This document shows, in pieces, positions 38,555-51,538 of a stretch of DNA of 64,000 bases (within the stretch, counting starts at the first letter, position 1; each line of letters opens with the position of its first letter). A program made the translations under genes and the position numbers. The notes beneath the pieces are model-generated. The model ran no database searches. It was not told the origin of the DNA and saw only the letters and a program-made list of their open reading frames with translations. The DNA is from an uncultured Candidatus Saccharibacteria bacterium (GTDB lineage: Bacteria; Patescibacteriota; Minisyncoccia; Phycocordibacterales; EsbW-18): positions 33,735-97,734 of the forward strand of contig CAYUSN010000001.1 in NCBI GenBank assembly GCA_964447415.1, in the 5' to 3' direction.

Positions 38555-39295
38555 ATGTCACAGGGAATTTTCTTCACACTTATCACACAGCCGCTGTACA
38601 ACGGCATTGTCGGACTCATTCACCTTCTCCCGTGGGCGGATCTCGGTGTGGTGATTATTATTTTTACAATACTCGTACGTTTTATTCTGTTTCCTGTTGC
38701 ACAAAAGGCGCTTCGCACACAGCTCGCGCTGCAGAAAGTACAGCCGAAGATGGATGAAATAAAGGAAAAGTATAAAAACGACCGGCAGGCGCAGGCGTTG
38801 AAAATGATGGAGTTGTATAAAGAGTACAAAGTGAACCCGTTTTCAAGTGTTTTGTTTATGTTCATCCAGATTCCGATTATTTTCGGATTGTACTTTATGT
38901 TTGTGCGCACGGGACTGCCGGACATTCATCCGGACTTTTTGTACTCGTTTATGTCCGTTCCGCCGCCCGTTTCAACGTTTTTTTTGGGTTTTATTGACGT
39001 CGCACAGAAGAGTTTGCCGTTTGCAATACTCGCCGGTGTCTCGCAGTTTTTTCAGGCCTACTTCATGAAAATGCCGGAACCGTCGGGTGCAAAAGAGTCG
39101 TTTGGCGCAACGTTTCAAAAAAGCATGTCGTTTCAGATGAAGTATGTGTTCCCGATTCTTATTGTGTTTATTGCCGCGGCGCTTCCCGGAAGCGTGGCGC
39201 TCTACTGGACCACAAGCAATCTTTTTTCCATCGTACAGGAGAGCATCCTGCGGAGAAAAATGAAAGAGAATCCCGCACGGCAGACCGATGTTTAG
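38555..39295 (+). CDS. yidC: membrane protein insertase YidC (short, Gram-positive-type)
   Basis: 246 aa, 5 TM segments, 'YKEYKVNPFSS' and 'PGSVALYWTTSNLFSIVQ' YidC motifs. Confidence 0.85.
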   Translation: MSQGIFFTLITQPLYNGIVGLIHLLPWADLGVVIIIFTILVRFILFPVAQKALRTQLALQKVQPKMDEIKEKYKNDRQAQALKMMELYKEYKVNPFSSVLFMFIQIPIIFGLYFMFVRTGLPDIHPDFLYSFMSVPPPVSTFFLGFIDVAQKSLPFAILAGVSQFFQAYFMKMPEPSGAKESFGATFQKSMSFQMKYVFPILIVFIAAALPGSVALYWTTSNLFSIVQESILRRKMKENPARQTDV

Positions 39296-40566
39296 TACGA
39301 GTTGTCCGTAGAGGGCACGTTTGAAGCGGCGAGGGAGAGATTGACGAGCCACAACGAGCCGTCTTTTTTATTTATGAAAGCGAGGTGGGTTCCGTCTTGC
39401 GATACCGACAGGTGTGTCATATCCAGACCCTCCGTCACAACGTCGCTCGGGTTAAGCAGGTAGGTCGCGGTGCCGTTTGTGGTATCGATTTTCCAAAGCG
39501 TATCAATGAACGATACGGAACCCTGATACCAATCATCAGGAAGCTTCTGGGTTGCGTTACTTGGAAGTGCACAGTACACCACCGTGGTGTTTTCCCACAC
39601 ACACTTCTCGGGGAGTGTTGCAATCGACAAGGGGGTTGTCTGACGTGTTGCGGTAGTATACGCAACAACGCCCGCGCCGTTTTGCCCCATGCGTCCCAAT
39701 AGAAGTAGTGTCCCGTCAGGGTTCGGGAGTACGGTAAGGCCGGGTGTAGTGGAAGAAACACGCCCGAGCGCACCTGAGGAGGGGTTGAGTGAAAAAGTGT
39801 TGCCGCCGACGGTTCCTGACGGTGCTGTGGTGAGAAAGATTGTTGAACCGGCATTCCATGAGGACTGCCACTGATAGAACGGGTGTGAAAATACACTGCG
39901 TGTTCCTGAATCGGATACAACAAAACCGTTGCTGCCGGTCGGTGACTTCACGGTGTAAAAGACCTGGTGTTGAGAAGGGTGTACAGCAACGGTGAGTGTG
40001 TTGGCGGGCAGGAATGTGCCAGATAGACGGGACTCAGACGGGCTGCTTGTCGAGAGCTCGGCAATTCTTCCTAGGAAGGACTCTACAGTTTCCCCGTCTT
40101 CTTCCTGTATGCGGCGGAACACAACGGTGTTTCCAAAGTTTCCGAACAGTGCTTCGCTCACGCGCGGAATGGTTGTGTTTGAAACACGCGTTGCCTGACC
40201 TGATGCAAGTGAATAGTCATAGATGTGTCCGGTTTCCCGCTCCACGTAGCGGATTGCATACTCGGTGGAGGTGCCGACAAGTCTTTGGATGGCTGTTACG
40301 CCTGCGGTCGGGGTATCGGAAATTTTTATGAGCGCCGAAGCGCGCACGGACGGTGTGTCGGAGAAGCCCGGCGTGTCCGTGTCGCCTGTGTCGGGCGTTG
40401 TCCCGGTGTCGTCGCTAAACATACCGAACGGATTAAATGTCCTTTCACCCGTGTCGGCCGTATCGGGGACCGACCCCTCATCTCCGCGCATCAAAAACCA
40501 CCACGCGCCGGCAAACACAAGGATAAACACGACAAGAATTGCGAGAATGATGAGTGTTTTTTTCAT
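39292..40566 (-). CDS. N-terminally anchored secreted protein, beta-propeller-like (last gene of the T4SS-like operon)
   Basis: N-terminal TM plus S/T/G-rich repeats; 'DGTHLAFINKKDGSLWLVNL' is PD40/TolB-like. Confidence 0.35.
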   Translation of the reverse strand: MKKTLIILAILVVFILVFAGAWWFLMRGDEGSVPDTADTGERTFNPFGMFSDDTGTTPDTGDTDTPGFSDTPSVRASALIKISDTPTAGVTAIQRLVGTSTEYAIRYVERETGHIYDYSLASGQATRVSNTTIPRVSEALFGNFGNTVVFRRIQEEDGETVESFLGRIAELSTSSPSESRLSGTFLPANTLTVAVHPSQHQVFYTVKSPTGSNGFVVSDSGTRSVFSHPFYQWQSSWNAGSTIFLTTAPSGTVGGNTFSLNPSSGALGRVSSTTPGLTVLPNPDGTLLLLGRMGQNGAGVVAYTTATRQTTPLSIATLPEKCVWENTTVVYCALPSNATQKLPDDWYQGSVSFIDTLWKIDTTNGTATYLLNPSDVVTEGLDMTHLSVSQDGTHLAFINKKDGSLWLVNLSLAASNVPSTDNSY

Positions 40567-40569
40567 ATC

Positions 40570-41511
40570 TTATTGTTCAGCAACCGACGAGCACGCCGTC
40601 ACGAAGTTTTTACACTCCGGAGTGTTTTTTCCGACACATACATGCCAGTGTTGTCCACCCTCGCTCTCGAGCCAGTAGTATGTGGTGGAGTTTTTTCGGA
40701 CCCATAAATCGTCGTCCCCGTAATCGTTGCACTGCGTGGAGTTGTTTCGTATATATGCTCCAAGCTTGACGGCAAGTTTAGACTTAAGGTCAAACACGGG
40801 TTTACCGACTCCGTGCGTTTGATGATTCGGTTCCGTTCCTCCGGTGATGATTACGGATGTAGACACAGGACAATTCTTTGGCCACTTGTCCTCAGGGCAC
40901 TTCCCCACTTCCGCGGCAAGTCTTTGCAGTTCACCGAGGGCGGCAGGATGGAGCCCTGCGACATTAATACAGTTTGGGGCACCTTGTCCCGGTTGACAGG
41001 CGTCTTGGTTGATACCGACCCCCCGCACTTTCATTGCTTCCCGCGCGGACTCTTCCTCGGCGGGCGGTGCTGGTGGTGCTGGTGGTGCTGGTGGAGCGGT
41101 ACTGACCGTGCCGCCCACTTCTTGGAGTGTCTGAAAGAGTTTGAAGTTCACCAAGTCGGGGTTGATTTGTTGCAGAATAAGAACGGTGGAGAGCGCAAGT
41201 ATTAACCCGCCGATAATACCGAAAAAGGCCTTTTTTGCGTTCTCCTTACTTCCCACGACATCCGAGGTCATATATACCACCCCGTTGTAGACAAACAGCA
41301 CAACTGCCAACAAAACCGCAATGGCAAGACCGAAGCTGAAGAACGCATTAAGGTAACCCGCGAGCCCACCCTCCGGTGCGACGTTCCCAATGAACGGCAA
41401 ATCTTTTACGAGAAGTTCGTAGTGTCCCGTCACTTGACCGAACACTACCGCCGGAAGGAGTATGGCGGCGATGAGGGAGATGCCCATGATTGTAGTCGTG
41501 TGTTTTTTCAT
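40570..41511 (-). CDS. VirB2/TrbC-like pilin-type N-terminus fused to a PAPP linker and a Cys-rich extracellular domain
   Basis: Signal peptide followed by two hydrophobic helices separated by a short polar loop (VirB2 topology), then APPAPPAPPAPPA, then a ~190-aa domain with >=10 Cys. Confidence 0.35.
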   Translation of the reverse strand: MKKHTTTIMGISLIAAILLPAVVFGQVTGHYELLVKDLPFIGNVAPEGGLAGYLNAFFSFGLAIAVLLAVVLFVYNGVVYMTSDVVGSKENAKKAFFGIIGGLILALSTVLILQQINPDLVNFKLFQTLQEVGGTVSTAPPAPPAPPAPPAEEESAREAMKVRGVGINQDACQPGQGAPNCINVAGLHPAALGELQRLAAEVGKCPEDKWPKNCPVSTSVIITGGTEPNHQTHGVGKPVFDLKSKLAVKLGAYIRNNSTQCNDYGDDDLWVRKNSTTYYWLESEGGQHWHVCVGKNTPECKNFVTACSSVAEQ

Positions 41512-41515
41512 ACGG

Positions 41516-42226
41516 TTATTCGAAGGTGACGTTTATACTTTCAGTTGCCCGCTGTAACAGGTTTTTAACGCCGTTGAGTGAAAGCTGTATATACACAGAA
41601 CTCGGCTCATCGGCCTGTGCAGAGAGCGTTCCGGTTACGGCTTCGGGGAGTTTTGTGCCGTTTGCACTCCATGTGTATGAAAGTGAACTATCCGTGCGTG
41701 ATGTTGCGGTGAAAAAAAACGGGTAAGCTTCGATATCAAAGTTTTTTTCAGTTGTGACGATGTTCCGCGGCAAGGCGCGCTCAAAAACGATGCCCTCGAG
41801 TGGTTTGTTTTGGTAGAGGCGGACAAACGGCTGTGTTTGGAGAACACGAACTGAACCGAACTCGGAATCGGTCCCGTCGGATACCTGCACAGAGACAAGC
41901 GGTGATTCTCCGAACTGCGAGCCGGAGAAGACAAACGAACGCTTCCCTACACCGGACTGAGCGCCGTCCACGACCCCCTCCCTTTTCCATGTATAGGTAA
42001 GTGTGTCCGGATTTCCCTGCTCCGTCGGAGGCAGTGCATACACAGTGACCTCTCCCCCCACCGGATACAGCGCCTTGCCCCGATACAAGGGCGGAATATA
42101 CGAGTGAGACTCCCAGATTAGCTCAACGGACGAGCTAATGCTGTTTCTCGCCAAGTTAATTTGTGCGTCCGAAAAAAGCGGAAAAGCAAGGAGGCAGAAA
42201 AGTGTTGTAAAAAAAATCTTTTTCAT
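41516..42226 (-). CDS. secreted hypothetical protein
   Basis: Signal peptide MKKIFFTTLFCLLAFPLFSDA; beta-rich. Confidence 0.35.
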   Translation of the reverse strand: MKKIFFTTLFCLLAFPLFSDAQINLARNSISSSVELIWESHSYIPPLYRGKALYPVGGEVTVYALPPTEQGNPDTLTYTWKREGVVDGAQSGVGKRSFVFSGSQFGESPLVSVQVSDGTDSEFGSVRVLQTQPFVRLYQNKPLEGIVFERALPRNIVTTEKNFDIEAYPFFFTATSRTDSSLSYTWSANGTKLPEAVTGTLSAQADEPSSVYIQLSLNGVKNLLQRATESINVTFE

Positions 42227-42753
42227 ATTTCCGACGGTGAAGGGTACATGTCAGTCATATGGGGTCTTGCCTCTCGTTTTGCATATTCCCCTGCGGACCG
42301 AGAACCCCAGTCAGCGTTTTTTATGGATTCAGGAATGCGATCCACAACGCTCTTTGTCACCGACTGTACGGTGCCCGCGGCTTTTGTAAGGTTGCCGAGG
42401 TTTGGCACACCTTTTTTACTCAGAAGCTGTATGCCGGTCTTTTCTTCTGCTCTGGTCAGTGCAATCATAAGTATAACACCGACGGTGATGGCAGGCAGGG
42501 CGCTTATCGCCGGAACGAGCTCAATAATATATGCTGACAGCATCGTCAGGAGTTTTTTAGGTGTGACCAACGGAAGTCCGAGAATTAAAAACCAGATAAG
42601 AAAAATCACGAAAGAACCGACATCCGCGAACGCCTGTCCGACAACCGGAATGATTGAGATAATGTCGAGAATAATCGCAGTTGCAATCATAAGTGCCGCC
42701 GCTGTATCGCTGATTTTAGATTCTTTTTTTTCTTGTTGCTGGTTTTCGTCCAT
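42223..42753 (-). CDS. integral membrane protein (3 TM), T4SS-associated
   Basis: 176 aa, hydrophobic core; 4-nt overlap with the neighbouring genes. Confidence 0.35.
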   Translation of the reverse strand: MDENQQQEKKESKISDTAAALMIATAIILDIISIIPVVGQAFADVGSFVIFLIWFLILGLPLVTPKKLLTMLSAYIIELVPAISALPAITVGVILMIALTRAEEKTGIQLLSKKGVPNLGNLTKAAGTVQSVTKSVVDRIPESIKNADWGSRSAGEYAKREARPHMTDMYPSPSEI

Positions 42754-42755
42754 AG

Positions 42756-44696
42756 TTACTCCACATTCTTAAGGTCGACGTTTGCCGTGACGCCGCCTTC
42801 CGTGGGTGGATGTGTGTCGCCGTGGGAAGTGACCTTTTCGGCAAGCGGGGGTACATCCACCGTTTTCTTTTCGTCCTGTGTTTTTTGCAGACGCCACTCA
42901 TCGCGTGACTTTTGGAGCGCCATGAGTTGTGACGGATCGGAAGTAATAATCTGGTCTTCCGTATACGATGCGATGGTTTTGATGGCAACGTGCTTGAGGC
43001 CGGCAAAAAAGATTCCCTCCCCCACCTCCGATTCAAGAAGCAGGTACTTCTCCTCATCAGTGAGGTTGAAGGTCTGCTGCACCAAGTCAATGGATGACGG
43101 TGATTGCTTCAAAAGCAGCTGGATGGACGAGTTGGTGATAATCGGCAGTCCGTACGGAGAGCGCAAGAAGTCCCCCACATCTTGTGTGATGGTGGCGATG
43201 CCGAGATAGTATTTGCGTCCGCGCTTTGCAAGTCCGAACAAAAGCGATGCGGTGTCCTCTTCCTTCATCATCCACCACGCCTCATCCACGACGAGCAGGC
43301 GTTTTTTGAGTGTGCGGCGTACCGCACCCCAGATGTAGTGTGTGATGAGGTACATAGCAACCGGCTTGAGCTCGTCTTCCATGTCGCGCACGGAGAACAC
43401 AACGAACTTTTTATTGATATCGACGTTTGTCGGTTGGTTTATGAATCCTGACCACGTTCCTTTGGTGTACTTGGTGAGACGCTGCACCAGTGACTCACCC
43501 CCTTCCATGCCGGCAAGCACAAGCTCGAAGTCCGACAACAGCGGCGACTCGGTTCCTGAAAAGTCGCGCTCCCCTGTGATGTCTTTAAGCGCGTAGGTTT
43601 CCGTGATGGCGCGGTCAATAATGGCGTCTTCCTCGGGGGTAAGTCCGCCGAACATGATGCGGAAGAGACCGACCAACGTCACAATCTGCGAACGCAGCAC
43701 ATTTGCGGGTGTTTCATCTTCGCGCACAGGCGGCAGGTCAAACGGGTTGATGTGGTGCTCGGAAGTAAGTGAGATGTTGAAATAACGTCCGCCCATAGCC
43801 TCGGACATGTGTTCATACTCGCGTTCCGGGTCAATCACAATGACGTCGGTGTCAAACATCAGCGTGCGGAGAATTTCAAGTTTTGTCGCGTATGATTTTC
43901 CGGCACCGGAGGTTGCAAAGGTCACCGAGTTGTAGTTCGGCATTGAAAAGCGGTCAAACAGAATGAGGCCTGAGTTGTGCCGGTTAAGACCGTAGAGGAT
44001 TCCTTTGTCGGAGGTGAGGTCAAACGACACAAACGGAAAGAAGCTTGAAAGCGGGGACGTGTTGAGCTTGCTGTGTACACCGAGCTCGTCTTGTCCGATG
44101 GGGAGCACGCTGCGGAAGCCCTGCTCTTGCTGAAAGAGCGCTGGTTTCAAGTAGATAAGACGGCTTTCAAGCAGGGAGCGTATCTCGGACTCCATTTTAT
44201 CGAGGTCGTCTTCCTTGTCCGCATAGATGGATATATAGAGACCGACATCAAAAAGCTTCTCGGTTGCCTGTTGCAGTTGGTCGCGGAGGAGCTCGAGGTT
44301 TTGGTATGCAGCGTCAAGCATCGGGTCGCGCACAAGCCCGCGCTCTTCGCGGATGTGGATCTGGCTTTGCACTTCAGCGACGCGCTTGCGAAATTCTTTA
44401 AGCACGGTTGCGGTATCTACAGGAATGATGGAAATGGAGATATCGAATACTTTGTCGATATTGATAATCGGCGAGAGCCAGTTGTCAGGCAGAAAGCGCG
44501 GATATGAAATCGCAAAAAACGTGCGGACAACCTTGTCGCCGAGGTTAAGTGCGCGCGATGACACACGCAACGCTGACGGTGCGATGATGTCCTGCAGCTC
44601 AAGCACACCCGCCTCATAGATGTCTTTCGGCAACACCGGCGTTATCTGCGGCATGTCTTTTTTCTTTTTTCCTACGATGATGTCGAAAATTCCCAT
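42756..44696 (-). CDS. virB4: type IV secretion system ATPase VirB4/TrbE/TraC family
   Basis: 'TFATSGAGKSYATK' Walker A, 'LLVVDEAWWMM' Walker B, 'GIATITQDVGDF'; N-terminal 'SYPRFLPDNWLSPII' VirB4-N pattern. Confidence 0.85.
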   Translation of the reverse strand: MGIFDIIVGKKKKDMPQITPVLPKDIYEAGVLELQDIIAPSALRVSSRALNLGDKVVRTFFAISYPRFLPDNWLSPIINIDKVFDISISIIPVDTATVLKEFRKRVAEVQSQIHIREERGLVRDPMLDAAYQNLELLRDQLQQATEKLFDVGLYISIYADKEDDLDKMESEIRSLLESRLIYLKPALFQQEQGFRSVLPIGQDELGVHSKLNTSPLSSFFPFVSFDLTSDKGILYGLNRHNSGLILFDRFSMPNYNSVTFATSGAGKSYATKLEILRTLMFDTDVIVIDPEREYEHMSEAMGGRYFNISLTSEHHINPFDLPPVREDETPANVLRSQIVTLVGLFRIMFGGLTPEEDAIIDRAITETYALKDITGERDFSGTESPLLSDFELVLAGMEGGESLVQRLTKYTKGTWSGFINQPTNVDINKKFVVFSVRDMEDELKPVAMYLITHYIWGAVRRTLKKRLLVVDEAWWMMKEEDTASLLFGLAKRGRKYYLGIATITQDVGDFLRSPYGLPIITNSSIQLLLKQSPSSIDLVQQTFNLTDEEKYLLLESEVGEGIFFAGLKHVAIKTIASYTEDQIITSDPSQLMALQKSRDEWRLQKTQDEKKTVDVPPLAEKVTSHGDTHPPTEGGVTANVDLKNVE

Positions 44697-44699
44697 AGG

Positions 44700-45365
44700 T
44701 TATTTGACCGCCGACAATGCAATCGGTTTTTCTGAATCGCCCGGGTTGAACAGTTTGTAGTAGAGCTCCACGAGCTCCTCGGTCTGCAGTTGCACCGCGC
44801 GGATACCCGCGCGCGAGAGGTTTTGCGACACGACGGCGACACGTTGTTCAAGCTGACTACGGTGTTCCTCAAACGCAATTATTTTCTGTTCGGGATTTTC
44901 TTTACCTTTACCGAATCCGCCGAGTACACCTCCTAACGCCCCCTTCACTCCCCCTTTTGCCGCAGACACAACAGCCGGTGAGTACGGAACAACGACAAAA
45001 AAGCTTTTTGACATGATGTTGACGTTTTCCGTGAAGCCTTTGACGAACTCGATGTATTCACGCGTCTGAATTTTAATGAGTTCGATCGTTTGTTCTTTAA
45101 TCTGGTTTTCCAGAAGCGCAATATACGGTCGAATGTCTAACTCACGGGATTGAATGAAAATCTGCGTCGGAAACTCGATGGAATTCAGCAGGTTCTGAAA
45201 CTGCATAATAATAGCCGCTTGCTCGTCTTCTGACTTGAGCGCAAAGTTAAGGGAACTGCACAACAGCACCGCGCGCATGGAGCCGTCCTTGAGAATGACG
45301 ATGCCGCTGCGGATTTCTTTGATGGGGACGAATACCTGCGCACTCTGCGCTTTTTGTTGCGCCAT
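44700..45365 (-). CDS. T4SS-associated conserved hypothetical protein
   Basis: 221 aa, no TM; Gly-rich 'AKGGVKGALGGVLGGFGKGK' segment; lies between the VirB3-like and VirB4 genes. Confidence 0.35.
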   Translation of the reverse strand: MAQQKAQSAQVFVPIKEIRSGIVILKDGSMRAVLLCSSLNFALKSEDEQAAIIMQFQNLLNSIEFPTQIFIQSRELDIRPYIALLENQIKEQTIELIKIQTREYIEFVKGFTENVNIMSKSFFVVVPYSPAVVSAAKGGVKGALGGVLGGFGKGKENPEQKIIAFEEHRSQLEQRVAVVSQNLSRAGIRAVQLQTEELVELYYKLFNPGDSEKPIALSAVK

Positions 45366-45443
45366 ATATCGTATGGTAGCGGAAAAAAGGGATTTCGTCA
45401 GCCTGTATAAGTGAATTGCGGGGTTTCTGTGAGGCGCGGATGT

Positions 45444-46610: not shown

Positions 46611-48794
46611 TTATGGTCCGGGTGGGGTCGGTGTGGCTGGTGGTGTCGCCGGAGTTGCGGGTGCGGTGGGAGCTGCGGGTGTCCCTCCGGTCGTCTGTTG
46701 TGGCGGAGTTAATTCGGATTCCTGTTGTTTCATAACGTCCAGGATTTGTTTTGCGAGAGCCTCCTCGGGTTTTTCTTTGCTTTTTCTGAGCGTGTCGCCT
46801 GCCTGCCGCGTGGATGTAAAGGCTCCGGTGGAAAGCGTTTCTCCGTATGCGCGCTGCGAACCGGATGTCTGACCGGAAGCCTGCTTCACTATTTTGGAGA
46901 GATCTCCCATGGCGGTTATGTACGACCTGATACTACCACCCAATCCGTCACGGTATGCATTCAATCCCCGCTCCGCATTGTCCGCCTTATCCTCGAGTGT
47001 TTTTCGTTTAGCAGAGTCTAGTTCGAGTTTTGCGCTTTGACGAAGGGCTTTTATGTAATCCCCCCGTTCGTTTATTACCTTCATTGCGGCATCGGCCTCC
47101 TTTCTTTGTGCGTTTGTAAGCTGTGCACTGGCTTTCGCGAGCGCTTCTCGTTCATCCGAGCCTTTTCCTTGAAGCTCACGAAGTGCGCCTTGTGCCCTTT
47201 CAAGATCAGCTACTGCGTCATCGCGTTTCTTTCGAGCCGCTTCGCGCTCTTTTTCAGATCCGGACAGTGCGTCCACAGAGGTCCATTCATCTCGGGCTGT
47301 TGCCAGCGCTCTTTTCTTTTCCTCTATCTCCTTCTTCTGGTCCGCGATTGCCATTGCAGGCGCGTATTTCTTTCCCCGCTCCTCCAGTTTTTCTGTCCGT
47401 GCCTTGCGCGCACCCACTAAACCACCCTTATTACTAGCCTCTCCAAAATCACCGCCCACACTTTTGATACCCCGTGCATCAAATGTTGAGGTTTTTAGCC
47501 TGTCACCACCGAGAAGAAGACCTTTGGCAAGAGAGCCCGAGAAGCCACCGCTCTTTGCCTGTTCTCCAAGCCACGAGGATTGCGACATTCTTTCCCCGAC
47601 CCGCCCAAGCGTGTTTCGTCCTAGCGCCGCGGCACCACCAAACGCTGCCTTGCCGGTCCACTTTGCAACCGCATTACCGGACATGTTTGCCGTCTGCTTT
47701 GATGCGACAAGGGCGACAATTAAAAGTCCGATGACAATGACATACTGAACAACAACTGATACGAGATTTGCAAGTGCGGCTCCGGCCCCGCCTCCTGTAG
47801 CGAGTATTGCTCCTTGCACACCCTCCTTAAAGCCCGGGTCGTTAATCACCAACACAACGACTAATATAAGCACAAAGAACACCGGTGCAAATGTTGCCTG
47901 GTCGGCAAGTGTTTTCCACCATTTTTCCGAGTGTTTTTTCAGTTGTGGGAGCAATTCTCCGATAAAGGCAATGGGGGACGTTATCATCAAGATGATAAAC
48001 ATTACAAACCGCACCAAAAGCATGACCGCCATTACAAACAAAACGAATGCCGCAACGAGTATGGTGACGATTCCCAACAGTGTGCTAAAGAGAGCGTACA
48101 CCCCCGCACTGACCCCCGTGAAGGCGGATGCGCCGCCCTCAAGTGCAGCACCGAGTTTGCCCTCATCACCGATGATGCGCGTCAAACTCAACCCGTTCAT
48201 TATTGAGGTTGTCAGTCCGGTTGTGGGGATGACACCAAAAAGCTTCTGCCCGCCCCCCCGTTGTTTGATGTTTGCCGCGGCTTTATAGAACTCATAGGCG
48301 GTGAGGTTGGATACATCAATGACCACCTTTGTAAACATCAAACTGAAGTTGATGAGCAGTGCGGCGATGATGATTTTCGGAATAAGTGATTTGTTGTACG
48401 GACCGCTTCCCCACGAACCCAAGATGATGTTGATGGAGACAAGGAGGAGCACGAACACGAACAAAATATTGGCGACATCACGTATAGCACGCCACGCGAG
48501 ATTAATTGCTTGGATGCCGGTATACCCCGGCTGCCCACCCTCTATTATCAGGCGCATTTTTACGATGGTAATGTCGATGACAAGCTCAAGAACAAAGGCG
48601 GCAAGCGCAAGAAAAAGACCGAACGCCTGAAGGACCATGTTGAGAAGAAGTGTCACTCCGTCCACAAAGGCGTTCCCTGCCCAAGAAAATGGGTCCCACC
48701 ATTCGGCGGATACGGTTTGGGGAAGAAGTAAAAAGGCGGACACAAAAAGCACCGGCAGCAGAAACTTCAGATTTTTTTTGAACCACGTGTACAT
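46611..48794 (-). CDS. VirB6/TrbL-like polytopic membrane protein with long charged coiled-coil C-terminal region and P/T-rich tail
   Basis: 727 aa; signal peptide, >=6 TM segments, then ~300 aa of coiled-coil-like K/E/A-rich sequence ending in PATPATPPATPTPPGP. Confidence 0.5.
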   Translation of the reverse strand: MYTWFKKNLKFLLPVLFVSAFLLLPQTVSAEWWDPFSWAGNAFVDGVTLLLNMVLQAFGLFLALAAFVLELVIDITIVKMRLIIEGGQPGYTGIQAINLAWRAIRDVANILFVFVLLLVSINIILGSWGSGPYNKSLIPKIIIAALLINFSLMFTKVVIDVSNLTAYEFYKAAANIKQRGGGQKLFGVIPTTGLTTSIMNGLSLTRIIGDEGKLGAALEGGASAFTGVSAGVYALFSTLLGIVTILVAAFVLFVMAVMLLVRFVMFIILMITSPIAFIGELLPQLKKHSEKWWKTLADQATFAPVFFVLILVVVLVINDPGFKEGVQGAILATGGGAGAALANLVSVVVQYVIVIGLLIVALVASKQTANMSGNAVAKWTGKAAFGGAAALGRNTLGRVGERMSQSSWLGEQAKSGGFSGSLAKGLLLGGDRLKTSTFDARGIKSVGGDFGEASNKGGLVGARKARTEKLEERGKKYAPAMAIADQKKEIEEKKRALATARDEWTSVDALSGSEKEREAARKKRDDAVADLERAQGALRELQGKGSDEREALAKASAQLTNAQRKEADAAMKVINERGDYIKALRQSAKLELDSAKRKTLEDKADNAERGLNAYRDGLGGSIRSYITAMGDLSKIVKQASGQTSGSQRAYGETLSTGAFTSTRQAGDTLRKSKEKPEEALAKQILDVMKQQESELTPPQQTTGGTPAAPTAPATPATPPATPTPPGP

Positions 48795-48803
48795 AAACTA
48801 ATG

Positions 48804-50537
48804 CTACGGCTCAAACTCGACGGAAATATTGTTCCACCTCCAACCGTCTGTGTTGCCCTCATTTCCTTCAGCGCTTCCATATGCGCCGAGTTGGAGGAAG
48901 TACCCTGTCTGGCCTTTAGAATTCGTGCTTGAAATAAATTCAGCAGTTGGGCTGAGATTGATGCGCACCACCTGGCTGCCGCCTTGGCGTACGATAACCT
49001 CGGCACGACCTGCCGCAGGCTCGTAGTCGACCTCAAATGTGTATGTCTGACCGGTCTGGAGCCCGAAGTTCTGTGACTTTTGGTTTGAGTTGTCTACCAC
49101 ACAGCTGTCTAGTTGTGTGACGGCGCGTACTTTATCGGGGCTGTCCTGCACAGCGGTTACCTCTATGATACGGTTTGCACCACCGGCCCAATCGATACTG
49201 CCGCGGTTTAACCACAAGACGTTGTACTGCGTTCCGGGCCCGTTCCACTCTCCTACTGTAAGGTCAAGGGAAATCACGATACGCCTGTAATCGCCCCAGC
49301 GTTTGCCTGCAGGAAGCGGTAGGTTTTCACCGAAGTAGTCGTTTACCGTAGCCGACGTGTAGGTGATGCTTGATCCGGGTGTGCCCGATGTCGGGTTTGT
49401 TGGTGTGCACTGACCGCCACCCCCGCCATCATCATCTCCCCAGATGCCGCCGGTATCAACGAGCGGGTCGTCGAAGTCTGTCTCATAGTCGTAGCCGGTG
49501 AGGCCCTCATCTTTCGTAAGAATGTCGGTAAGGAGGTAGACCGCGACCAAGCTGATGATTTCATTGATTTCATCTGCCGCGACGATTGAATCAAGTTTTA
49601 TCCCGAACGATTTTTCAAGACTTGTTTTAATAGTGTCTCCCGGTGTGATGACCTGTGCCGGGTCACAGTAACTGTAGTAATCTTCGTGCACGGTGCCGTC
49701 CTCCTCCACCCAATCCTCTGTGTAGCAGTTTTGCACTTCCTTGCTCAGGAAGCCGTTGGCAAAATCAAGCTTCCATTTTGATTCATCAGCTTTTTCGGCA
49801 ACAACTTTGTTGAGCTCCTCTACGGTTTCAAGATATGCGCCGTACGGAGTGTTGTACGGGTTTGCCGCCATTTCTATCCACGCCTCCCACCCACCCGCAT
49901 AGAAATCTCCGCCAAGGAATGCGTCGACATCGACGCCCGCCATTTGGGAGAGCGTACAGCTTGTCAGACCGCTTCCTCCGTAGCCGCCGTATCCTCCGCT
50001 ACGCCCGGACAGTCCTTGGTAGTATTGCGTGAGCGCAAGTTGGATTTGGGCGCGAAACGGTGAACAGAGAAATCCGCCGCCGATGTTTTGTATGTAGGTG
50101 CCCGCGGCCTGGTCGGCGATACCGGTAAGGTATTGGGTGATGTTTTGCACGAACGACGGGTTGCCGCCGTACCCCTTCTGTGACCAGCCCACTGCCTGTC
50201 CGGTGACGAGTTCAAGAAGCGCGTTTTTTGTCGCTGACACAAGACAGTCCTCAATCATGTCCTTTACGGCGCTTGCCCAGTCAGTGACCGGCACTTGCGT
50301 GAGCGCAAAACCGAGCACTGCGCTTATAACAAACTGGATAAGTGCGGCTTCGGCACATTGCTCAGCGTATTTTTCGAATAGTTCATCAAAGGACGGTCCG
50401 TCGTAATACGTCTGTTCTTCCTCTTGTGCGTATGCTTGCGGCACATATGCGGCGGAGAAAAATCCAGTACAGAAAACCGCAAGGAGCAGCGAAGCGGCTA
50501 TTTTTTGGAGTGTGCGTGATTGAAATAAAAAAATCAT
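48804..50537 (-). CDS. large secreted protein (577 aa), hypothetical; G-rich segment and beta-rich C-terminal half
   Basis: Signal peptide; 'GGYGGYGGSG'; 'DDDGGGGGQCTP'. Confidence 0.4.
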   Translation of the reverse strand: MIFLFQSRTLQKIAASLLLAVFCTGFFSAAYVPQAYAQEEEQTYYDGPSFDELFEKYAEQCAEAALIQFVISAVLGFALTQVPVTDWASAVKDMIEDCLVSATKNALLELVTGQAVGWSQKGYGGNPSFVQNITQYLTGIADQAAGTYIQNIGGGFLCSPFRAQIQLALTQYYQGLSGRSGGYGGYGGSGLTSCTLSQMAGVDVDAFLGGDFYAGGWEAWIEMAANPYNTPYGAYLETVEELNKVVAEKADESKWKLDFANGFLSKEVQNCYTEDWVEEDGTVHEDYYSYCDPAQVITPGDTIKTSLEKSFGIKLDSIVAADEINEIISLVAVYLLTDILTKDEGLTGYDYETDFDDPLVDTGGIWGDDDGGGGGQCTPTNPTSGTPGSSITYTSATVNDYFGENLPLPAGKRWGDYRRIVISLDLTVGEWNGPGTQYNVLWLNRGSIDWAGGANRIIEVTAVQDSPDKVRAVTQLDSCVVDNSNQKSQNFGLQTGQTYTFEVDYEPAAGRAEVIVRQGGSQVVRINLSPTAEFISSTNSKGQTGYFLQLGAYGSAEGNEGNTDGWRWNNISVEFEP

Positions 50538-51538
50538 GAGGATGGTGCGGCGGGGTTTATAAGCAGATACCCGGGTTCCGTTTTGGAGAACGTAATATCC
50601 GCGTTTTCAAACACAGTGCGCAACGCCCTGAACGCTTCCCCGCGCCGAGTCGTGCTTTCATTATAGGTTGTGAACACAGAAAGTGCGAGAAGCGGATCTT
50701 CGGTGAAACTGTGGAAATCATTTACCGTGCTTCGTACCAGCGAAAGCGCGTTGATGATGCCGAGATGTGCAGAAACGATATTTTTTGGGACGCTTATTTG
50801 AAGCAATCCGGCGAGTACATAGTCGTATTGTGCGATGACCTCTTTGAGATCCCGGAGGAATGTTGTTTCGTCTCCTGTCTGCATGAATGACACCAACACA
50901 ATAAGTTCATTCTTCACCTCGTCACCTTCAGGGACCGAGAGCAGTGCACCGACATCGTTTCCGTATTCCCGAAGCGCCTTCTCGTCTGATTGTGCTGAGG
51001 CGCGTACATCAGACAGCGAGTACACCCGCGGTGCCGTTTGCTCGGGCGGGTCGTATGCCGGGATGCTTTGTACGATTGCAAGTGCATCGTCTTTTGAGAG
51101 CGGTTGTCCTGATTGTTTGAGCGCCAGGTAGTTGGAAAGCAAAAGCCCCGAGACCTGTTCGGTGTACGAAAGGGATTCCCAGTTCGGGTCATCTGTCGGG
51201 TCAATAAGCTTTGCAAATTCCTGTTGTCGGGTCAGCGCCGTGTTTTGTGCCTCCTGTTTTTCAGTGGCGTCTGAAATACCGTCTCCGTCGGTGTCAGGAT
51301 TGTTCGGGTCAAAGCCCCACAACATCTCCTCCCAGTTTTTGAGGCCGTCTCCGTCGGTATCAAGTTCTTCCGTGTAGGTTTTTTCGGTGCCGGTTACCGT
51401 AATGTCGGGCTCGTCCGTCCCTGGTGCCTTTGAATCACTTCGTATAAGCCATGTGGCGGCGACAATTGCGATGACAACAATGGCGAGTGCGACAACTTTA
51501 CTGCTTGGTTTGGTTTGTTCCATGTGCATACACCCCAA
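50534..51538 (-). CDS. membrane-anchored protein with thrombospondin-type-3-like Ca-binding repeats (first gene of operon)
   Basis: N-terminal TM; '[12 protein letters not shown]' and '[12 protein letters not shown]' DxDxDG repeats. Confidence 0.4.

What the first reader, a model, noticed from the sequence alone, without database searches (positions are those of the whole stretch)
40570..41511. Pilin-topology protein fused to a Cys-rich extracellular domain via a PAPP repeat linker
The N-terminal 110 aa have VirB2/TrbC-like topology (signal peptide, two hydrophobic helices, short polar loop). They are followed by APPAPPAPPAPPA and a domain with >=10 cysteines (CQPGQGAPNC...CPEDKWPKNC...CNDYG...CVGKNTPEC...C). 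Canonical T4SS pilins are ~100 aa. A pilin with a built-in disulfide-rich tip domain would be an unusual adhesin design.
Basis: seen in the sequence. Interest (0 to 1): 0.5.

Follow-up and report, generated by a model that had tools for sequence, protein, structure and literature searches.

The report
Pilin fused to cell-wall peptidase
This gene, in the type IV secretion operon of an ultrasmall Patescibacteria (CPR) bacterium, joins a pilin-like membrane hairpin to what looks like a zinc peptidase that cuts bacterial cell wall; the design is common in these bacteria, I found no description of it, and it may explain how their secretion machine gets through a cell wall.

Summary
It has a Sec signal peptide, a VirB2-like two-helix hairpin, an (APP)4 linker and a cysteine-containing outer domain with 8 Cys, not >=10. 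The hairpin scores 24.5 bits against Pfam T4SS_pilin, just under the cutoff, but 111 of 150 relatives match.

The gene lies in a chromosomal Patescibacteria type IV secretion operon (VirB6-like, PrgI, TrsD, VirB4) next to yidC-rnpA-dnaA.

The fusion is common: 1,310 50%-identity clusters, and 113 species genomes in a truncated scan.

Best reading: a peptidoglycan peptidase dedicated to the secretion system and tethered by a pilin module, a candidate for the 'missing VirB1'. Between near-identical strains the pilin part is 92% identical and the enzyme part 39%. That swapped cassette leaves a host-directed, pilus-displayed lysin open.

The parts
40570..41511 (-). Whole gene: pilin module + linker + LAS-like peptidase domain (313 aa plus stop codon)
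   Evidence: ORF list and sequence; full-length homologues P0001-P0008.
41437..41511 (-). Signal peptide, aa 1-25 (MKKHTTTIMGISLIAAILLPAVVFG), with predicted cleavage after VFG/VFA
   Evidence: Hydrophobic segment 7-25. Identity to P0001 jumps from 52% (aa 1-25) to 99% (aa 26-125), as expected for a leader that is removed. The cleavage itself is inferred.
41137..41436 (-). Mature VirB2-like pilin module, aa 26-125: conserved YELLV.DLPFIG motif, helix 50-82, Lys-rich loop, helix 86-116, INPDLV motif
   Evidence: Pfam T4SS_pilin over aa 52-112, 24.5 bits against a cutoff of 26.6. NCBIfam Mbov_0395 pilin-like, weak. AF2 helices. 111 of 150 relatives match T4SS_pilin and 10 match TrbC. 92-99% identical in close relatives.
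41062..41136 (-). Linker, aa 126-150, ending in (APP)4
   Evidence: Low pLDDT at 128-138. Family linkers have a median length of 36 aa and are rich in P/G/T/S.
41066..41094 (.). Perfect 9-bp tandem repeat (GGTGCTGGT x3.2) that encodes the APP repeats. It lies at the 5' edge of the divergent cassette.
   Evidence: Tandem Repeats Finder; nucleotide identity profile against L001.
40573..41061 (-). C-terminal domain, aa 151-313: predicted LAS-type (Hedgehog/DD-peptidase fold) zinc peptidase with 8 Cys. It behaves as a hypervariable or swapped cassette.
40789..40845 (-). Motif 1, TGGTEPNHQTHGVGKPVFD (aa 223-241): E227, H230, H233, D241
   Evidence: In 320 relatives: E227 320, H230 320, H233 312, D241 320. 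hhalign places H233 and D241 on Shh zinc ligands H140 and D147. The ligand numbering is from my own knowledge.
40642..40668 (-). Motif 2, ESEGGQHWH (aa 282-290): E282, H288, H290
   Evidence: In 320 relatives: E282 270, H288 319, position 290 is H in 269 and D in 50.
40969..40998 (-). Conserved Cys pair C172...C181 (CQPGQGAPNC), probably a disulfide
   Evidence: 308 of 320 for each Cys. The disulfide is inferred.
39292..40566 (-). Downstream partner gene (424 aa, N-terminal membrane anchor, no known domain)
   Evidence: Homologue present in 68 of 113 related loci. No Pfam or PDB sequence match.
41516..42226 (-). Upstream partner gene (236 aa; reads like an N-terminal signal peptide, though the hydropathy scan found no hydrophobic segment; no known domain)
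   Evidence: Homologue in 50 of 113 related loci. No Pfam or PDB sequence match. No hydrophobic segment at the scan threshold.
42223..42753 (-). 176-aa protein with about 4 hydrophobic segments; its C-terminal part is variable
   Evidence: Nucleotide identity dips at 42393-42219.
42756..44696 (-). VirB4-type ATPase (646 aa)
   Evidence: NCBIfam conju_CD1110, 366 bits (cutoff 325); Pfam P-loop_TraG.
44700..45365 (-). TrsD-like protein (221 aa, resembles the N-terminal part of VirB4)
   Evidence: NCBIfam VirB4_plasma N-terminal match. Separate gene in L001 and L004 as well. TrsD is described for Patescibacteria in PMC12102498.
45444..45857 (-). PrgI / VirB3-like protein (137 aa)
   Evidence: Pfam PrgI, 42.8 bits.
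46611..48794 (-). Polytopic membrane protein (727 aa, about 10 hydrophobic segments in the scan, two pairs overlapping, so roughly 8 helices); VirB6-like by topology only
   Evidence: Hydropathy scan; homologues in 11 related loci. No Pfam hit.

Best explanation
The gene encodes a two-part envelope protein of a Patescibacteria type IV secretion system (T4SS).

Part 1 is a VirB2-type pilin module: a Sec leader that is cut near G25/Q26, then a two-helix membrane hairpin with a Lys-rich loop, so the C-terminus points out of the cell.

Part 2, carried on a roughly 35-residue proline-rich tether, is a small disulfide-stabilised zinc peptidase of the LAS (Hedgehog/DD-peptidase) fold. It is predicted to cut the peptide part of peptidoglycan.

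The pilin module places the enzyme at the secretion machine, where VirB2 normally docks. There the enzyme opens the cell wall locally so that the channel or pilus can pass. This is the job done by VirB1-type hydrolases (PrgK, TraG, CwlT) in Gram-positive systems, and homologues of those are mostly missing near virB4 in Patescibacteria.

I commit to the producer's own wall as the first substrate. The same tethered enzyme could also act on the host wall; see rival 1.

Shown: the architecture, the operon context, the spread of the family, the conserved residues and the fold resemblance.

Inferred: leader cleavage, topology, zinc binding, peptidoglycan as substrate, and which wall is cut.
For: Pilin module:
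- Pfam T4SS_pilin over aa 52-112; 111 of 150 relatives match, best E 8e-14.
- Leader plus helical hairpin.

T4SS context:
- PrgI, TrsD, VirB4 and a polytopic VirB6-like gene in one co-directional operon.
- The same gene order is found in L001 and in a distant Patescibacteria genome, L004.
- VirB4 lies within the same 8-kb frame in 41 of 113 species loci.

Enzyme:
- AF2 model at pLDDT 94.3.
- In 320 relatives: E227, H230 and D241 in all 320, H288 in 319, H233 in 312, position 290 H or D in 319, E282 in 270.
- The actinomycete branch of the same family (hhalign 99.65%) has the canonical S-H-x2-G-x-K-x-D ... H-W-D motif.
- hhalign against human ShhN puts the His and Asp on Shh H140 and D147 (E 0.026).

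Peptidoglycan as substrate:
- Domain fusions with Phage_lysozyme (P0106), SLT (P0034) and PG_binding_1 (P0199).
- A T4SS_pilin+SLT fusion gene lies directly beside the pilin-LAS gene in L033. Proteins of about 334 aa with two predicted membrane helices (2TM) plus an SLT domain lie nearby in five other loci.
- UniProt names one member 'Peptidase M15B domain-containing'.

Precedent:
- In Southlakia epibionticum the essential gene next to virB4 (SEML1_0007) carries an ECOD Hedgehog/DD-peptidase domain.
- PMC12102498 reports that most Patescibacteria with VirB2-like pilins lack VirB1.
Against: - No sequence profile links the domain to any M15, M74 or Hedgehog family: Pfam, NCBIfam, PHROGs and PDB profiles were all negative.
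- The His-to-Asp spacing in the Patescibacteria branch is x7, not the canonical x6.
- I could not inspect model coordinates, so I have not shown that the conserved residues come together in space.
- An enzyme that only serves the producer's own wall would not be expected to differ by 61% between strains whose DnaA and VirB4 are 96-97% identical.
- The pilin core is more conserved (92-99%) than the other membrane parts of the operon (62-72%). That suits a polymerising pilin better than a simple anchor.
Confidence: 0.5

Rival explanations
1. Same enzyme, different target. The pilin module really polymerises into a T4SS pilus, and each subunit (or a subset) displays the peptidase on its flexible tether. 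The pilus therefore carries a wall-cutting enzyme to the host bacterium, on which these epibionts depend. The enzyme cassette is swapped between strains to match, or escape, different hosts.
For: - The C-terminal domain is a sharply bounded divergent cassette. It is 39% aa identical where flanking genes are 79-99% identical. Nucleotide identity falls to 35-60% only over roughly 41080-40560 and is 88% again at the next gene.
- The pilin core is 92-99% conserved, more than the VirB6-like protein at 62%.
- It is the only pilin-like ORF in the 64-kb window and in 75 of 98 related 8-kb loci.
- Free secreted relatives occur in actinomycetes, and copies occur in a springtail and another eukaryote, as is seen for bacteriolytic enzymes.
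- T4SS and pilins are essential for epibiotic growth in S. epibionticum.
- From my own knowledge: in solved VirB2/TraA pili the pilin termini face outward.
Against: - No pilus has been seen for any of these systems.
- A 163-aa domain on every subunit is sterically demanding.
- Gram-positive T4SS hydrolases are membrane-anchored and act on the producer's own wall.
- Fast evolution of exposed proteins can also be driven by phages or host defences, whatever the target.
- Other extracellular parts of this operon also diverge fast, at 62-69%.
Confidence: 0.3
2. One reading: the C-terminal domain is a non-catalytic, disulfide-knotted binding module (an adhesin tip) on a pilin.
For: - Eight cysteines, an extracellular location and hypervariability between strains.
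- Hedgehog-N, a top structural match, acts as a ligand in animals.
Against: - The residues that are (near-)invariant across 320 sequences are exactly the metal and catalytic set (E, H, H, D, H, H/D), while the surface is free to vary.
- Only 2 of the 8 Cys are conserved in the family.
- Fusion partners are wall-cutting or wall-binding domains.
Confidence: 0.07
3. A general cell-wall remodelling enzyme (for growth or division) whose two-helix anchor merely resembles a pilin, and whose position next to the T4SS genes and oriC is incidental.
For: - The window protein's T4SS_pilin score is below Pfam's cutoff.
- In the 8-kb frames only 41 of 113 loci show VirB4, while yidC (43) and dnaA (36) are about as frequent.
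- The family also has members with a single anchor, and free secreted members outside Patescibacteria.
Against: - 111 of 150 relatives match T4SS_pilin, down to E 8e-14, and 10 match TrbC/VirB2.
- The gene is inside the operon, 3-4 nt from its neighbours.
- The 8-kb frames are arbitrary cuts, so 41 of 113 is a lower bound.
- In this lineage the T4SS operon itself abuts yidC-dnaA (PMC12102498).
Confidence: 0.08
4. A polymorphic toxin: a conserved delivery module with a variable C-terminal toxin domain, paired with an immunity protein.
For: Conserved N-terminal part, repeat linker and swapped C-terminal cassette.
Against: - The cassettes are all the same enzyme family with the same conserved residues.
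- The downstream gene is a 424-aa anchored protein, 82% identical between the two strains and present in 68 of 113 loci. It does not co-vary as an immunity gene would.
Confidence: 0.03

Closest known systems
VirB2-like pilins of Patescibacteria T4SS (Pfam PF18895 T4SS_pilin; Quinonero-Coronel et al. 2025, PMC12102498; pilin array of Southlakia epibionticum, Wang et al. 2023, PMC10633639)
   Same: Leader plus two-helix hairpin, PF18895-type sequence, encoded beside virB4/prgI/trsD near dnaA.
   Different: Those pilins are roughly 120-180 aa with no extra domain and often occur in arrays. This one carries a 163-aa enzyme-like domain and is the only pilin-like gene in the window. Neither paper mentions such a fusion in the passages I searched.
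SEML1_0007 of Southlakia epibionticum (essential; adjacent to VirB4; ECOD 'Hedgehog/DD-peptidase' domain at aa 951-1105, Table S2 of PMC10633639)
   Different: It is a 1,113-aa protein with the domain at its far C-terminus, and no pilin module is reported. I could not fetch its sequence, so homology to this family is untested.
Membrane-anchored peptidoglycan hydrolases of Gram-positive T4SSs (VirB1-like: PrgK of pCF10, TraG of pIP501, CwlT of ICEBs1)
   Same: Encoded in the T4SS operon, N-terminal membrane anchor, extracytoplasmic wall-cutting domain(s). This is the proposed role here. The properties of these enzymes are from my own knowledge and from the summary in PMC12102498.
   Different: Their catalytic domains are SLT/muramidase, CHAP, NlpC/P60 or LytM, not LAS. 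Their anchor is a plain transmembrane helix, not a pilin hairpin.
LAS zinc peptidases (MEROPS M15 VanX/VanY/LdcB/phage L-Ala-D-Glu peptidases, M74 MepA, VldE C-terminal domain, Hedgehog N-domain)
   Same: Order of secondary structure: helix, then strand (TGGTE), His...Asp loop and strand, helix, strands, and a final strand carrying H-x-H/D. Conserved His/Asp/His plus Glu. Best structural matches.
   Different: No sequence-profile match to any of these families. An extra N-terminal Cys-loop region (C...CT[NS]). His-x7-Asp in the Patescibacteria branch. Disulfides.
Small secreted actinomycete proteins of the same domain family (e.g. WP_204051082 of Microbispora siamensis; the PG_binding_1 fusion WP_398008549 of Streptomyces)
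   Same: Same domain family (hhalign 99.65%, E 3.8e-25) with the same conserved residues.
   Different: No pilin module. The motif ends in H-W-D rather than H-W-H. No genomic context was examined for them.

Membership tests
VirB2/TrbC-type T4SS pilin (Pfam PF18895 / PF04956) | Sequence match to the family model above its curated threshold | tested here: inconclusive
   The window protein scores 24.5 bits against a cutoff of 26.6 (E 2.8e-5) over aa 52-112. 111 of 150 full-length relatives match at E<=0.01 (best 8e-14), and 10 also match TrbC.
VirB2/TrbC-type T4SS pilin (Pfam PF18895 / PF04956) | Cleavable leader followed by two hydrophobic helices joined by a short basic loop | tested here: met
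   Hydrophobic segments at 7-25, 56-74 and 95-113. AF2 helices at 2-28, 50-82 and 86-116. Conservation steps up at residue 25/26.
VirB2/TrbC-type T4SS pilin (Pfam PF18895 / PF04956) | Encoded with VirB3/VirB4/VirB6-type genes | tested here: met
   Same-strand operon with PrgI, TrsD, VirB4 and a polytopic protein. The gene order is kept in L001 and L004.
VirB2/TrbC-type T4SS pilin (Pfam PF18895 / PF04956) | Small single-domain protein (mature pilin well under 150 aa) | tested here: not met
   313 aa, of which 163 aa form an extra C-terminal domain.
VirB2/TrbC-type T4SS pilin (Pfam PF18895 / PF04956) | Polymerises into an extracellular pilus | not testable with these tools
No pilus has yet been shown for any Patescibacteria T4SS (review PMC12857230).
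LAS zinc metallopeptidases (Hedgehog/DD-peptidase fold; M15, M74, Hedgehog-N) | The fold | tested here: met
LAS zinc metallopeptidases (Hedgehog/DD-peptidase fold; M15, M74, Hedgehog-N) | Metal and catalytic signature: His-x(3-7)-Asp, then a later His in an H-x-H or H-x-D motif, plus a Glu | tested here: met
   In 320 relatives: H233 in 312, D241 in 320, H288 in 319, position 290 H in 269 and D in 50, E282 in 270; H230 and E227 in all 320. The register matches Shh H140 and D147 in hhalign. Whether these residues cluster in space was not checked, because no coordinates were available.
LAS zinc metallopeptidases (Hedgehog/DD-peptidase fold; M15, M74, Hedgehog-N) | Sequence-profile match to a curated LAS family model | tested here: not met
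   No Pfam, NCBIfam or PHROG family at E<=1 for 103 domain sequences or for actinomycete members. No PDB sequence hit with three profiles. hhalign against a single ShhN sequence gave E 0.33 and 0.026.
LAS zinc metallopeptidases (Hedgehog/DD-peptidase fold; M15, M74, Hedgehog-N) | Binds zinc and cleaves a peptide bond of peptidoglycan | not testable with these tools
   Needs biochemistry.
T4SS-associated peptidoglycan hydrolases (VirB1-like) | [quoted passage not shown] | tested here: met
T4SS-associated peptidoglycan hydrolases (VirB1-like) | SLT / lysozyme-like (or CHAP / NlpC-P60) catalytic domain | tested here: not met
   No such domain in the window protein. Related loci do carry pilin+SLT fusions next to the pilin-LAS gene.
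T4SS-associated peptidoglycan hydrolases (VirB1-like) | Needed for assembly or function of the T4SS | not testable with these tools
   Indirect only: the LAS-domain gene SEML1_0007 next to virB4 is essential in S. epibionticum.
Polymorphic toxin with immunity protein | A variable C-terminal domain paired with a co-varying downstream immunity gene | tested here: not met
   The cassette is variable. The downstream gene, however, is 82% conserved between the two strains and widespread, in 68 of 113 loci.

The most novel reading that the evidence does not exclude
The pilin module is a true polymerising T4SS pilin. The filament therefore carries a brush, or a tip, of tethered zinc peptidases: a 'self-drilling' pilus. 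It first cuts its way through the producer's own wall and then through the wall of the host bacterium. The enzyme cassette is exchanged by recombination at the (APP)n repeat to track different host cell walls. Together with the neighbouring pilin-SLT fusions, this would make the VirB2 hairpin a general carrier for wall-degrading enzymes in Patescibacteria. It would also give a concrete mechanism for why their T4SS is essential for life on a host.
Probability: 0.3. Interest if true: 0.8.

Novelty: new variant of a known kind. Interest (0 to 1): 0.6.

Why it matters
Patescibacteria make up a large share of bacterial diversity and live attached to other microbes. Their type IV secretion system is the only one known to be essential for the organism that carries it (PMC10633639, PMC12857230), yet what it does is unknown.

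Two puzzles stated in the literature are these. First, the systems look like Gram-positive conjugation machines but carry VirB2-like pilins. Second, most lack a recognisable VirB1 wall hydrolase (PMC12102498).

This finding links the two. In many lineages the 'pilin' gene next to virB4 is a pilin-hydrolase fusion, either a LAS peptidase or, in neighbouring genes, an SLT transglycosylase. Three consequences follow:
- Counts of 'pilins' in these genomes partly count tethered enzymes.
- There is now a candidate for the missing wall-opening function.
- The strain-to-strain cassette swapping points to the part of the machine that meets the outside world, possibly the host wall.

All of this can be tested with a 163-residue domain that should be easy to express.

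Tried and rejected
Searches that gave nothing:
- The search for homologous proteins with the C-terminal domain alone found nothing, although an 82%-identical domain exists. I treat this as a limit of the word index, not as a result.
- Foldseek against PDB gave no significant hit, with either the full-length model or the domain model.
- Profiles A2, A3 and A5 against PDB sequences gave no hits.
- Pfam, PHROGs and NCBIfam gave nothing for the domain.
- The afdb50 fold library was not available.
I replaced it with a back-translated motif scan.
- phmmer against PDB sequences found no informative match for either neighbouring partner gene: the 424-aa protein hit only an antibody heavy chain at E 0.15, and the 236-aa protein hit nothing.

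Ideas considered and dropped:
- A frameshifted VirB4. The 221-aa plus 646-aa split is conserved in distant relatives and corresponds to TrsD plus VirB4 as published.
- A diversity-generating retroelement as the cause of the domain's variability. The idea came from a 23S_rRNA_IVP (Avd-like) gene in L001 and L004. I set it aside because the divergence spans the whole domain and includes indels, and because the window lacks that gene. It was not tested further.
- A polymorphic toxin with an immunity gene. The downstream gene does not co-vary.
Full report
**1. The observation.**
The window holds an ATG-initiated ORF at 40570..41511 on the minus strand, 313 aa long. A hydropathy scan finds three hydrophobic segments at aa 7-25, 56-74 and 95-113. 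A full-length AlphaFold model built on an 11-sequence alignment (mean pLDDT 74) gives helices 2-28, 50-82 and 86-116. That is a leader followed by a helical hairpin with a short Lys-rich connecting loop.

The stretch TAPPAPPAPPAPPAE follows at aa 138-152. It is encoded by a perfect 9-bp tandem repeat at 41066-41094. With that one correction the description is accurate.

**2. The gene is real and sits in a type IV secretion operon.**
All neighbours are on the same strand, with gaps or overlaps of a few bases. Reading along the operon, they are:
- a 334-aa protein with TSP3 repeats;
- a 577-aa protein;
- a 727-aa polytopic membrane protein (about 10 hydrophobic segments in the scan, VirB6-like by topology only);
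- a 205-aa protein;
- PrgI/VirB3 (Pfam, 42.8 bits);
- a 221-aa TrsD-like protein;
- a VirB4 ATPase (NCBIfam conju_CD1110, 366 bits);
- a 176-aa membrane protein;
- a 236-aa protein of unknown function that reads like a secreted protein;
- the gene in question;
- a 424-aa anchored protein.

Then come yidC, rnpA, dnaA and dnaN.

The same order is found around homologue P0002 (locus L001) and around the distant homologue P0007, from a 'Patescibacteria group bacterium' (locus L004). This is the chromosomal T4SS near the replication origin described for Patescibacteria by Quinonero-Coronel et al. 2025 (PMC12102498). That paper also describes the separate TrsD gene, the VirB2-like pilins, and the usual absence of VirB1.

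**3. The N-terminal part is a VirB2-type pilin module.**
Pfam T4SS_pilin (PF18895) matches aa 52-112 at 24.5 bits, just under the 26.6-bit cutoff. NCBIfam gives a weak match to a mycoplasma 'pilin-like conjugal transfer protein'. Of 150 full-length relatives, 111 match T4SS_pilin (best E 8e-14) and 10 also match TrbC/VirB2.

Against the closest homologue, identity is 52% over aa 1-25 and 99% over aa 26-125. This fits removal of the leader near VFG|Q. By analogy with VirB2/TraA topology (my own knowledge), the two termini of the mature hairpin face outward, so the linker and C-terminal domain are extracytoplasmic. That location also fits the cysteines.

A profile built from the pilin parts of 108 relatives finds no other pilin-like ORF in the 64-kb window, nor in L001 or L004.

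**4. The C-terminal domain is a large family that Pfam and NCBIfam do not model.**
A profile of nine C-terminal domains, scored against 1.84 billion cluster representatives, found 1,310 proteins at E<=1e-3 and 509 at E<=1e-10. Most of the best 150 are 270-320 aa with the domain at the C-terminus. Of 155 scanned, 107 have three or four hydrophobic segments upstream of it.

Of these, 113 encode the domain, and in 102 the pilin module is on the same ORF. The 7 misses are chance hits in unrelated phyla.

The record titles that name a group name many Patescibacteria: Paceibacterota/Parcubacteria, Moraniibacteriota, Zambryski-, Jorgensen-, Ryan-, Giovannoni-, Lipton-, Brenner-, Azam- and Nomurabacteria, and genomes labelled Saccharibacteria. 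Others carry only generic labels or different ones (see the passing note on Bdellovibrionales).

Within the arbitrary 8-kb frames, homologues of the 424-aa neighbour occur in 68 loci, the 236-aa neighbour in 50, yidC in 43, VirB4 in 41 and dnaA in 36.

**5. What the domain is.**

The order of elements in the model is the LAS core order: helix 189-202, strand IITG, His...Asp loop and strand VFDLK, helix, three strands, and a final strand HWHVCV.

Across 320 family members that cover both motifs, the conserved residues are E227, H230 and D241 in all 320, H288 in 319, H233 in 312, position 290 as H in 269 and D in 50, and E282 in 270. That is the His...Asp / H-x-H(D) / Glu set of LAS zinc peptidases.

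hhalign of the family profiles against human ShhN is at best marginal on its own (E 0.33 for A3, 0.026 for A5). My typed ShhN sequence was verified as 100% identical to PDB 6e1h_C. Both runs put H233 on Shh H140 and D241 on Shh D147, the zinc ligands by my own knowledge, and put G-H230 on the G-H of Shh's G-H-H.

**6. Negative results that limit the claim.**
Foldseek against PDB found nothing significant with either model, and listed no LAS protein for the domain model. Profiles A2, A3 and A5 hit no PDB sequence. Pfam, NCBIfam and PHROGs have no family that matches the domain at E<=1.

I could not read model coordinates, so I have not shown that the conserved residues form one site. I put the LAS assignment itself at about 0.8.

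**7. Evidence that the substrate is peptidoglycan.**
- Family members with other architectures carry wall-directed partners. P0106 is domain + Phage_lysozyme, P0034 is SLT + domain, and the Streptomyces protein P0199 is PG_binding_1 + domain.
- The Patescibacteria domain and a set of small secreted actinomycete proteins are one family (hhalign 99.65%, E 3.8e-25).
- The actinomycete branch shows the textbook S-H-x2-G-x-K-x-D ... H-W-D pattern.
- UniProt names one of these proteins 'Peptidase M15B domain-containing protein'.
- Copies also occur in the springtail Folsomia candida and in a EukProt transcript.
- In locus L033 the gene next to the pilin-LAS gene is T4SS_pilin + SLT, both above Pfam cutoffs. 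Five loci labelled Saccharibacteria have proteins of about 334 aa, with two predicted membrane helices plus an SLT domain, near the pilin-LAS gene.
- In the only Patescibacterium studied genetically, the essential gene beside virB4 (SEML1_0007) carries an ECOD 'Hedgehog/DD-peptidase' domain. The next gene (SEML1_0006) carries lysozyme-like and cysteine-proteinase domains (Wang et al. 2023, Table S2).

**8. An unexpected feature: the enzyme domain is a swapped cassette.**
The window and L001 come from very close relatives. Amino-acid identities are:

| Protein or segment | Identity |
|---|---|
| TrsD | 99% |
| VirB4 | 96.6% |
| DnaA | 96.5% |
| YidC | 94% |
| Fusion, pilin core (aa 26-125) | 92% |
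| 424-aa flanking gene | 82% |
| 236-aa flanking gene | 79% |
| Fusion, C-terminal domain | 39% |

Nucleotide identity is about 75-85% on both sides. It falls to 35-60% only between roughly 41080 and 40560, and is 88% in the first 60 nt of the next gene. The 5' edge of the divergent block coincides with the 9-bp repeat.

All cassettes keep the conserved residues. Divergence of this size cannot have arisen in place; it indicates allele exchange.

The pilin core is also more conserved than the other membrane or extracellular parts of the operon, which are 62-72% identical.

**9. Mechanism.**
The best-supported reading (0.5) is a peptidoglycan peptidase dedicated to the T4SS. The pilin module takes it to the machine. 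The tether, about 36 residues at the family median and rich in P/G/T/S, lets it reach into the wall. The enzyme opens the wall for the channel or filament, as VirB1-type enzymes do elsewhere. [quoted passage not shown]

The main rival (0.3) keeps the enzyme but has the module polymerise, so that the peptidase is displayed on a pilus and directed at the host wall. Three observations favour it: the cassette swapping, the very high conservation of the pilin core, and the fact that this is the only pilin in most loci (75 of 98).

The remaining readings are less likely, for the reasons given under each rival: an adhesin (0.07), a wall enzyme unrelated to the T4SS (0.08) and a polymorphic toxin (0.03).

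**10. Novelty.**
The parts are known kinds: VirB2-like pilins of Patescibacteria, LAS peptidases, and T4SS wall hydrolases. The combination is new as far as I could find.

Full-text searches for pilin, Patescibacteria/CPR, T4SS and hydrolase or peptidase terms returned only PMC12102498 and the review PMC12857230 as relevant. In both, 'fusion' refers only to VirB3-VirB4, and the pilins are treated as plain pilins. The library holds open-access papers only, so this is not proof of absence.

I rate it a new variant of a known kind, with interest 0.6.

Noticed in passing
L033:1024-2292 (-), next to L033:2333-3451 (-); also L024:6542-7543, L058:2046-3023, L077:3116-4117, L080:511-1527, L082:6637-7650: Other enzyme fusions built on the same hairpin. 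L033 has a T4SS_pilin + SLT (lytic transglycosylase) gene directly beside the pilin-LAS gene. Five loci labelled Saccharibacteria have proteins of about 334 aa with two predicted membrane helices plus an SLT domain nearby. P0009, P0010 and two further ORFs are pilins with other Cys-rich C-terminal domains that I could not identify.
   Followed up: partly
window 40560-41080 compared with L001: The C-terminal domain is the most divergent segment of the whole locus between two near-identical strains: 39% aa identity, against 94-99% for housekeeping and cytoplasmic T4SS proteins. The boundaries are sharp, and the 5' boundary falls at the 9-bp (APP)n repeat.
   Followed up: yes
window 42219-42393 (C-terminal part of the 176-aa membrane protein, 42223-42753): A second short block of low nucleotide identity with indels relative to L001 (37-63%, against about 80% in the flanks).
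   Followed up: no
L001:5682-6065 (-) and L004:5674-6018 (+); the corresponding window gap is 45366-45443: Relatives carry a 23S_rRNA_IVP-family gene (the family that includes Avd proteins of diversity-generating retroelements) between prgI and trsD. The window has only a 78-nt gap there. I did not look for a reverse transcriptase or for template/variable repeats.
   Followed up: no
window 44700-45365 and 42756-44696: VirB4 appears split into a 221-aa N-terminal-like protein and a 646-aa ATPase. The split is conserved in distant relatives and corresponds to the published TrsD + VirB4 arrangement, so it is not a frameshift.
   Followed up: yes
window 39292-40566 and 41516-42226: The two genes flanking the fusion (424 aa with an N-terminal anchor, and 236 aa that reads like a secreted protein) travel with it in 68 and 50 of 113 species loci. 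Neither has a Pfam match or an informative PDB sequence match. They are candidate partners of unknown function.
   Followed up: partly
window 50534-51538: The first gene of the operon (334 aa, N-terminal anchor) carries bacterial thrombospondin type-3 (TSP3) calcium-binding repeats.
   Followed up: no
P0201 (Folsomia candida) and P0185 (EukProt transcript): Members of the domain family, with signal peptides, occur in a springtail genome and in a eukaryotic transcriptome. This suggests transfer of a bacterial wall-cutting enzyme to eukaryotes, or contamination.
   Followed up: no
L007, L012, L016, L017, L025, L028, L044, L059, L067, L069, L075, L094: Genomes labelled 'uncultured Bdellovibrionales/Pseudobdellovibrionaceae' (binchicken assemblies) carry the domain ORF, in most cases fused to the pilin module. 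Either the labels are wrong or the family reaches beyond Patescibacteria.
   Followed up: no
one search compared: The word-indexed protein search returned nothing for the 163-aa domain alone, although a homologue with an 82%-identical domain is in the same database. Negative results from that tool with short queries should not be trusted.
   Followed up: partly
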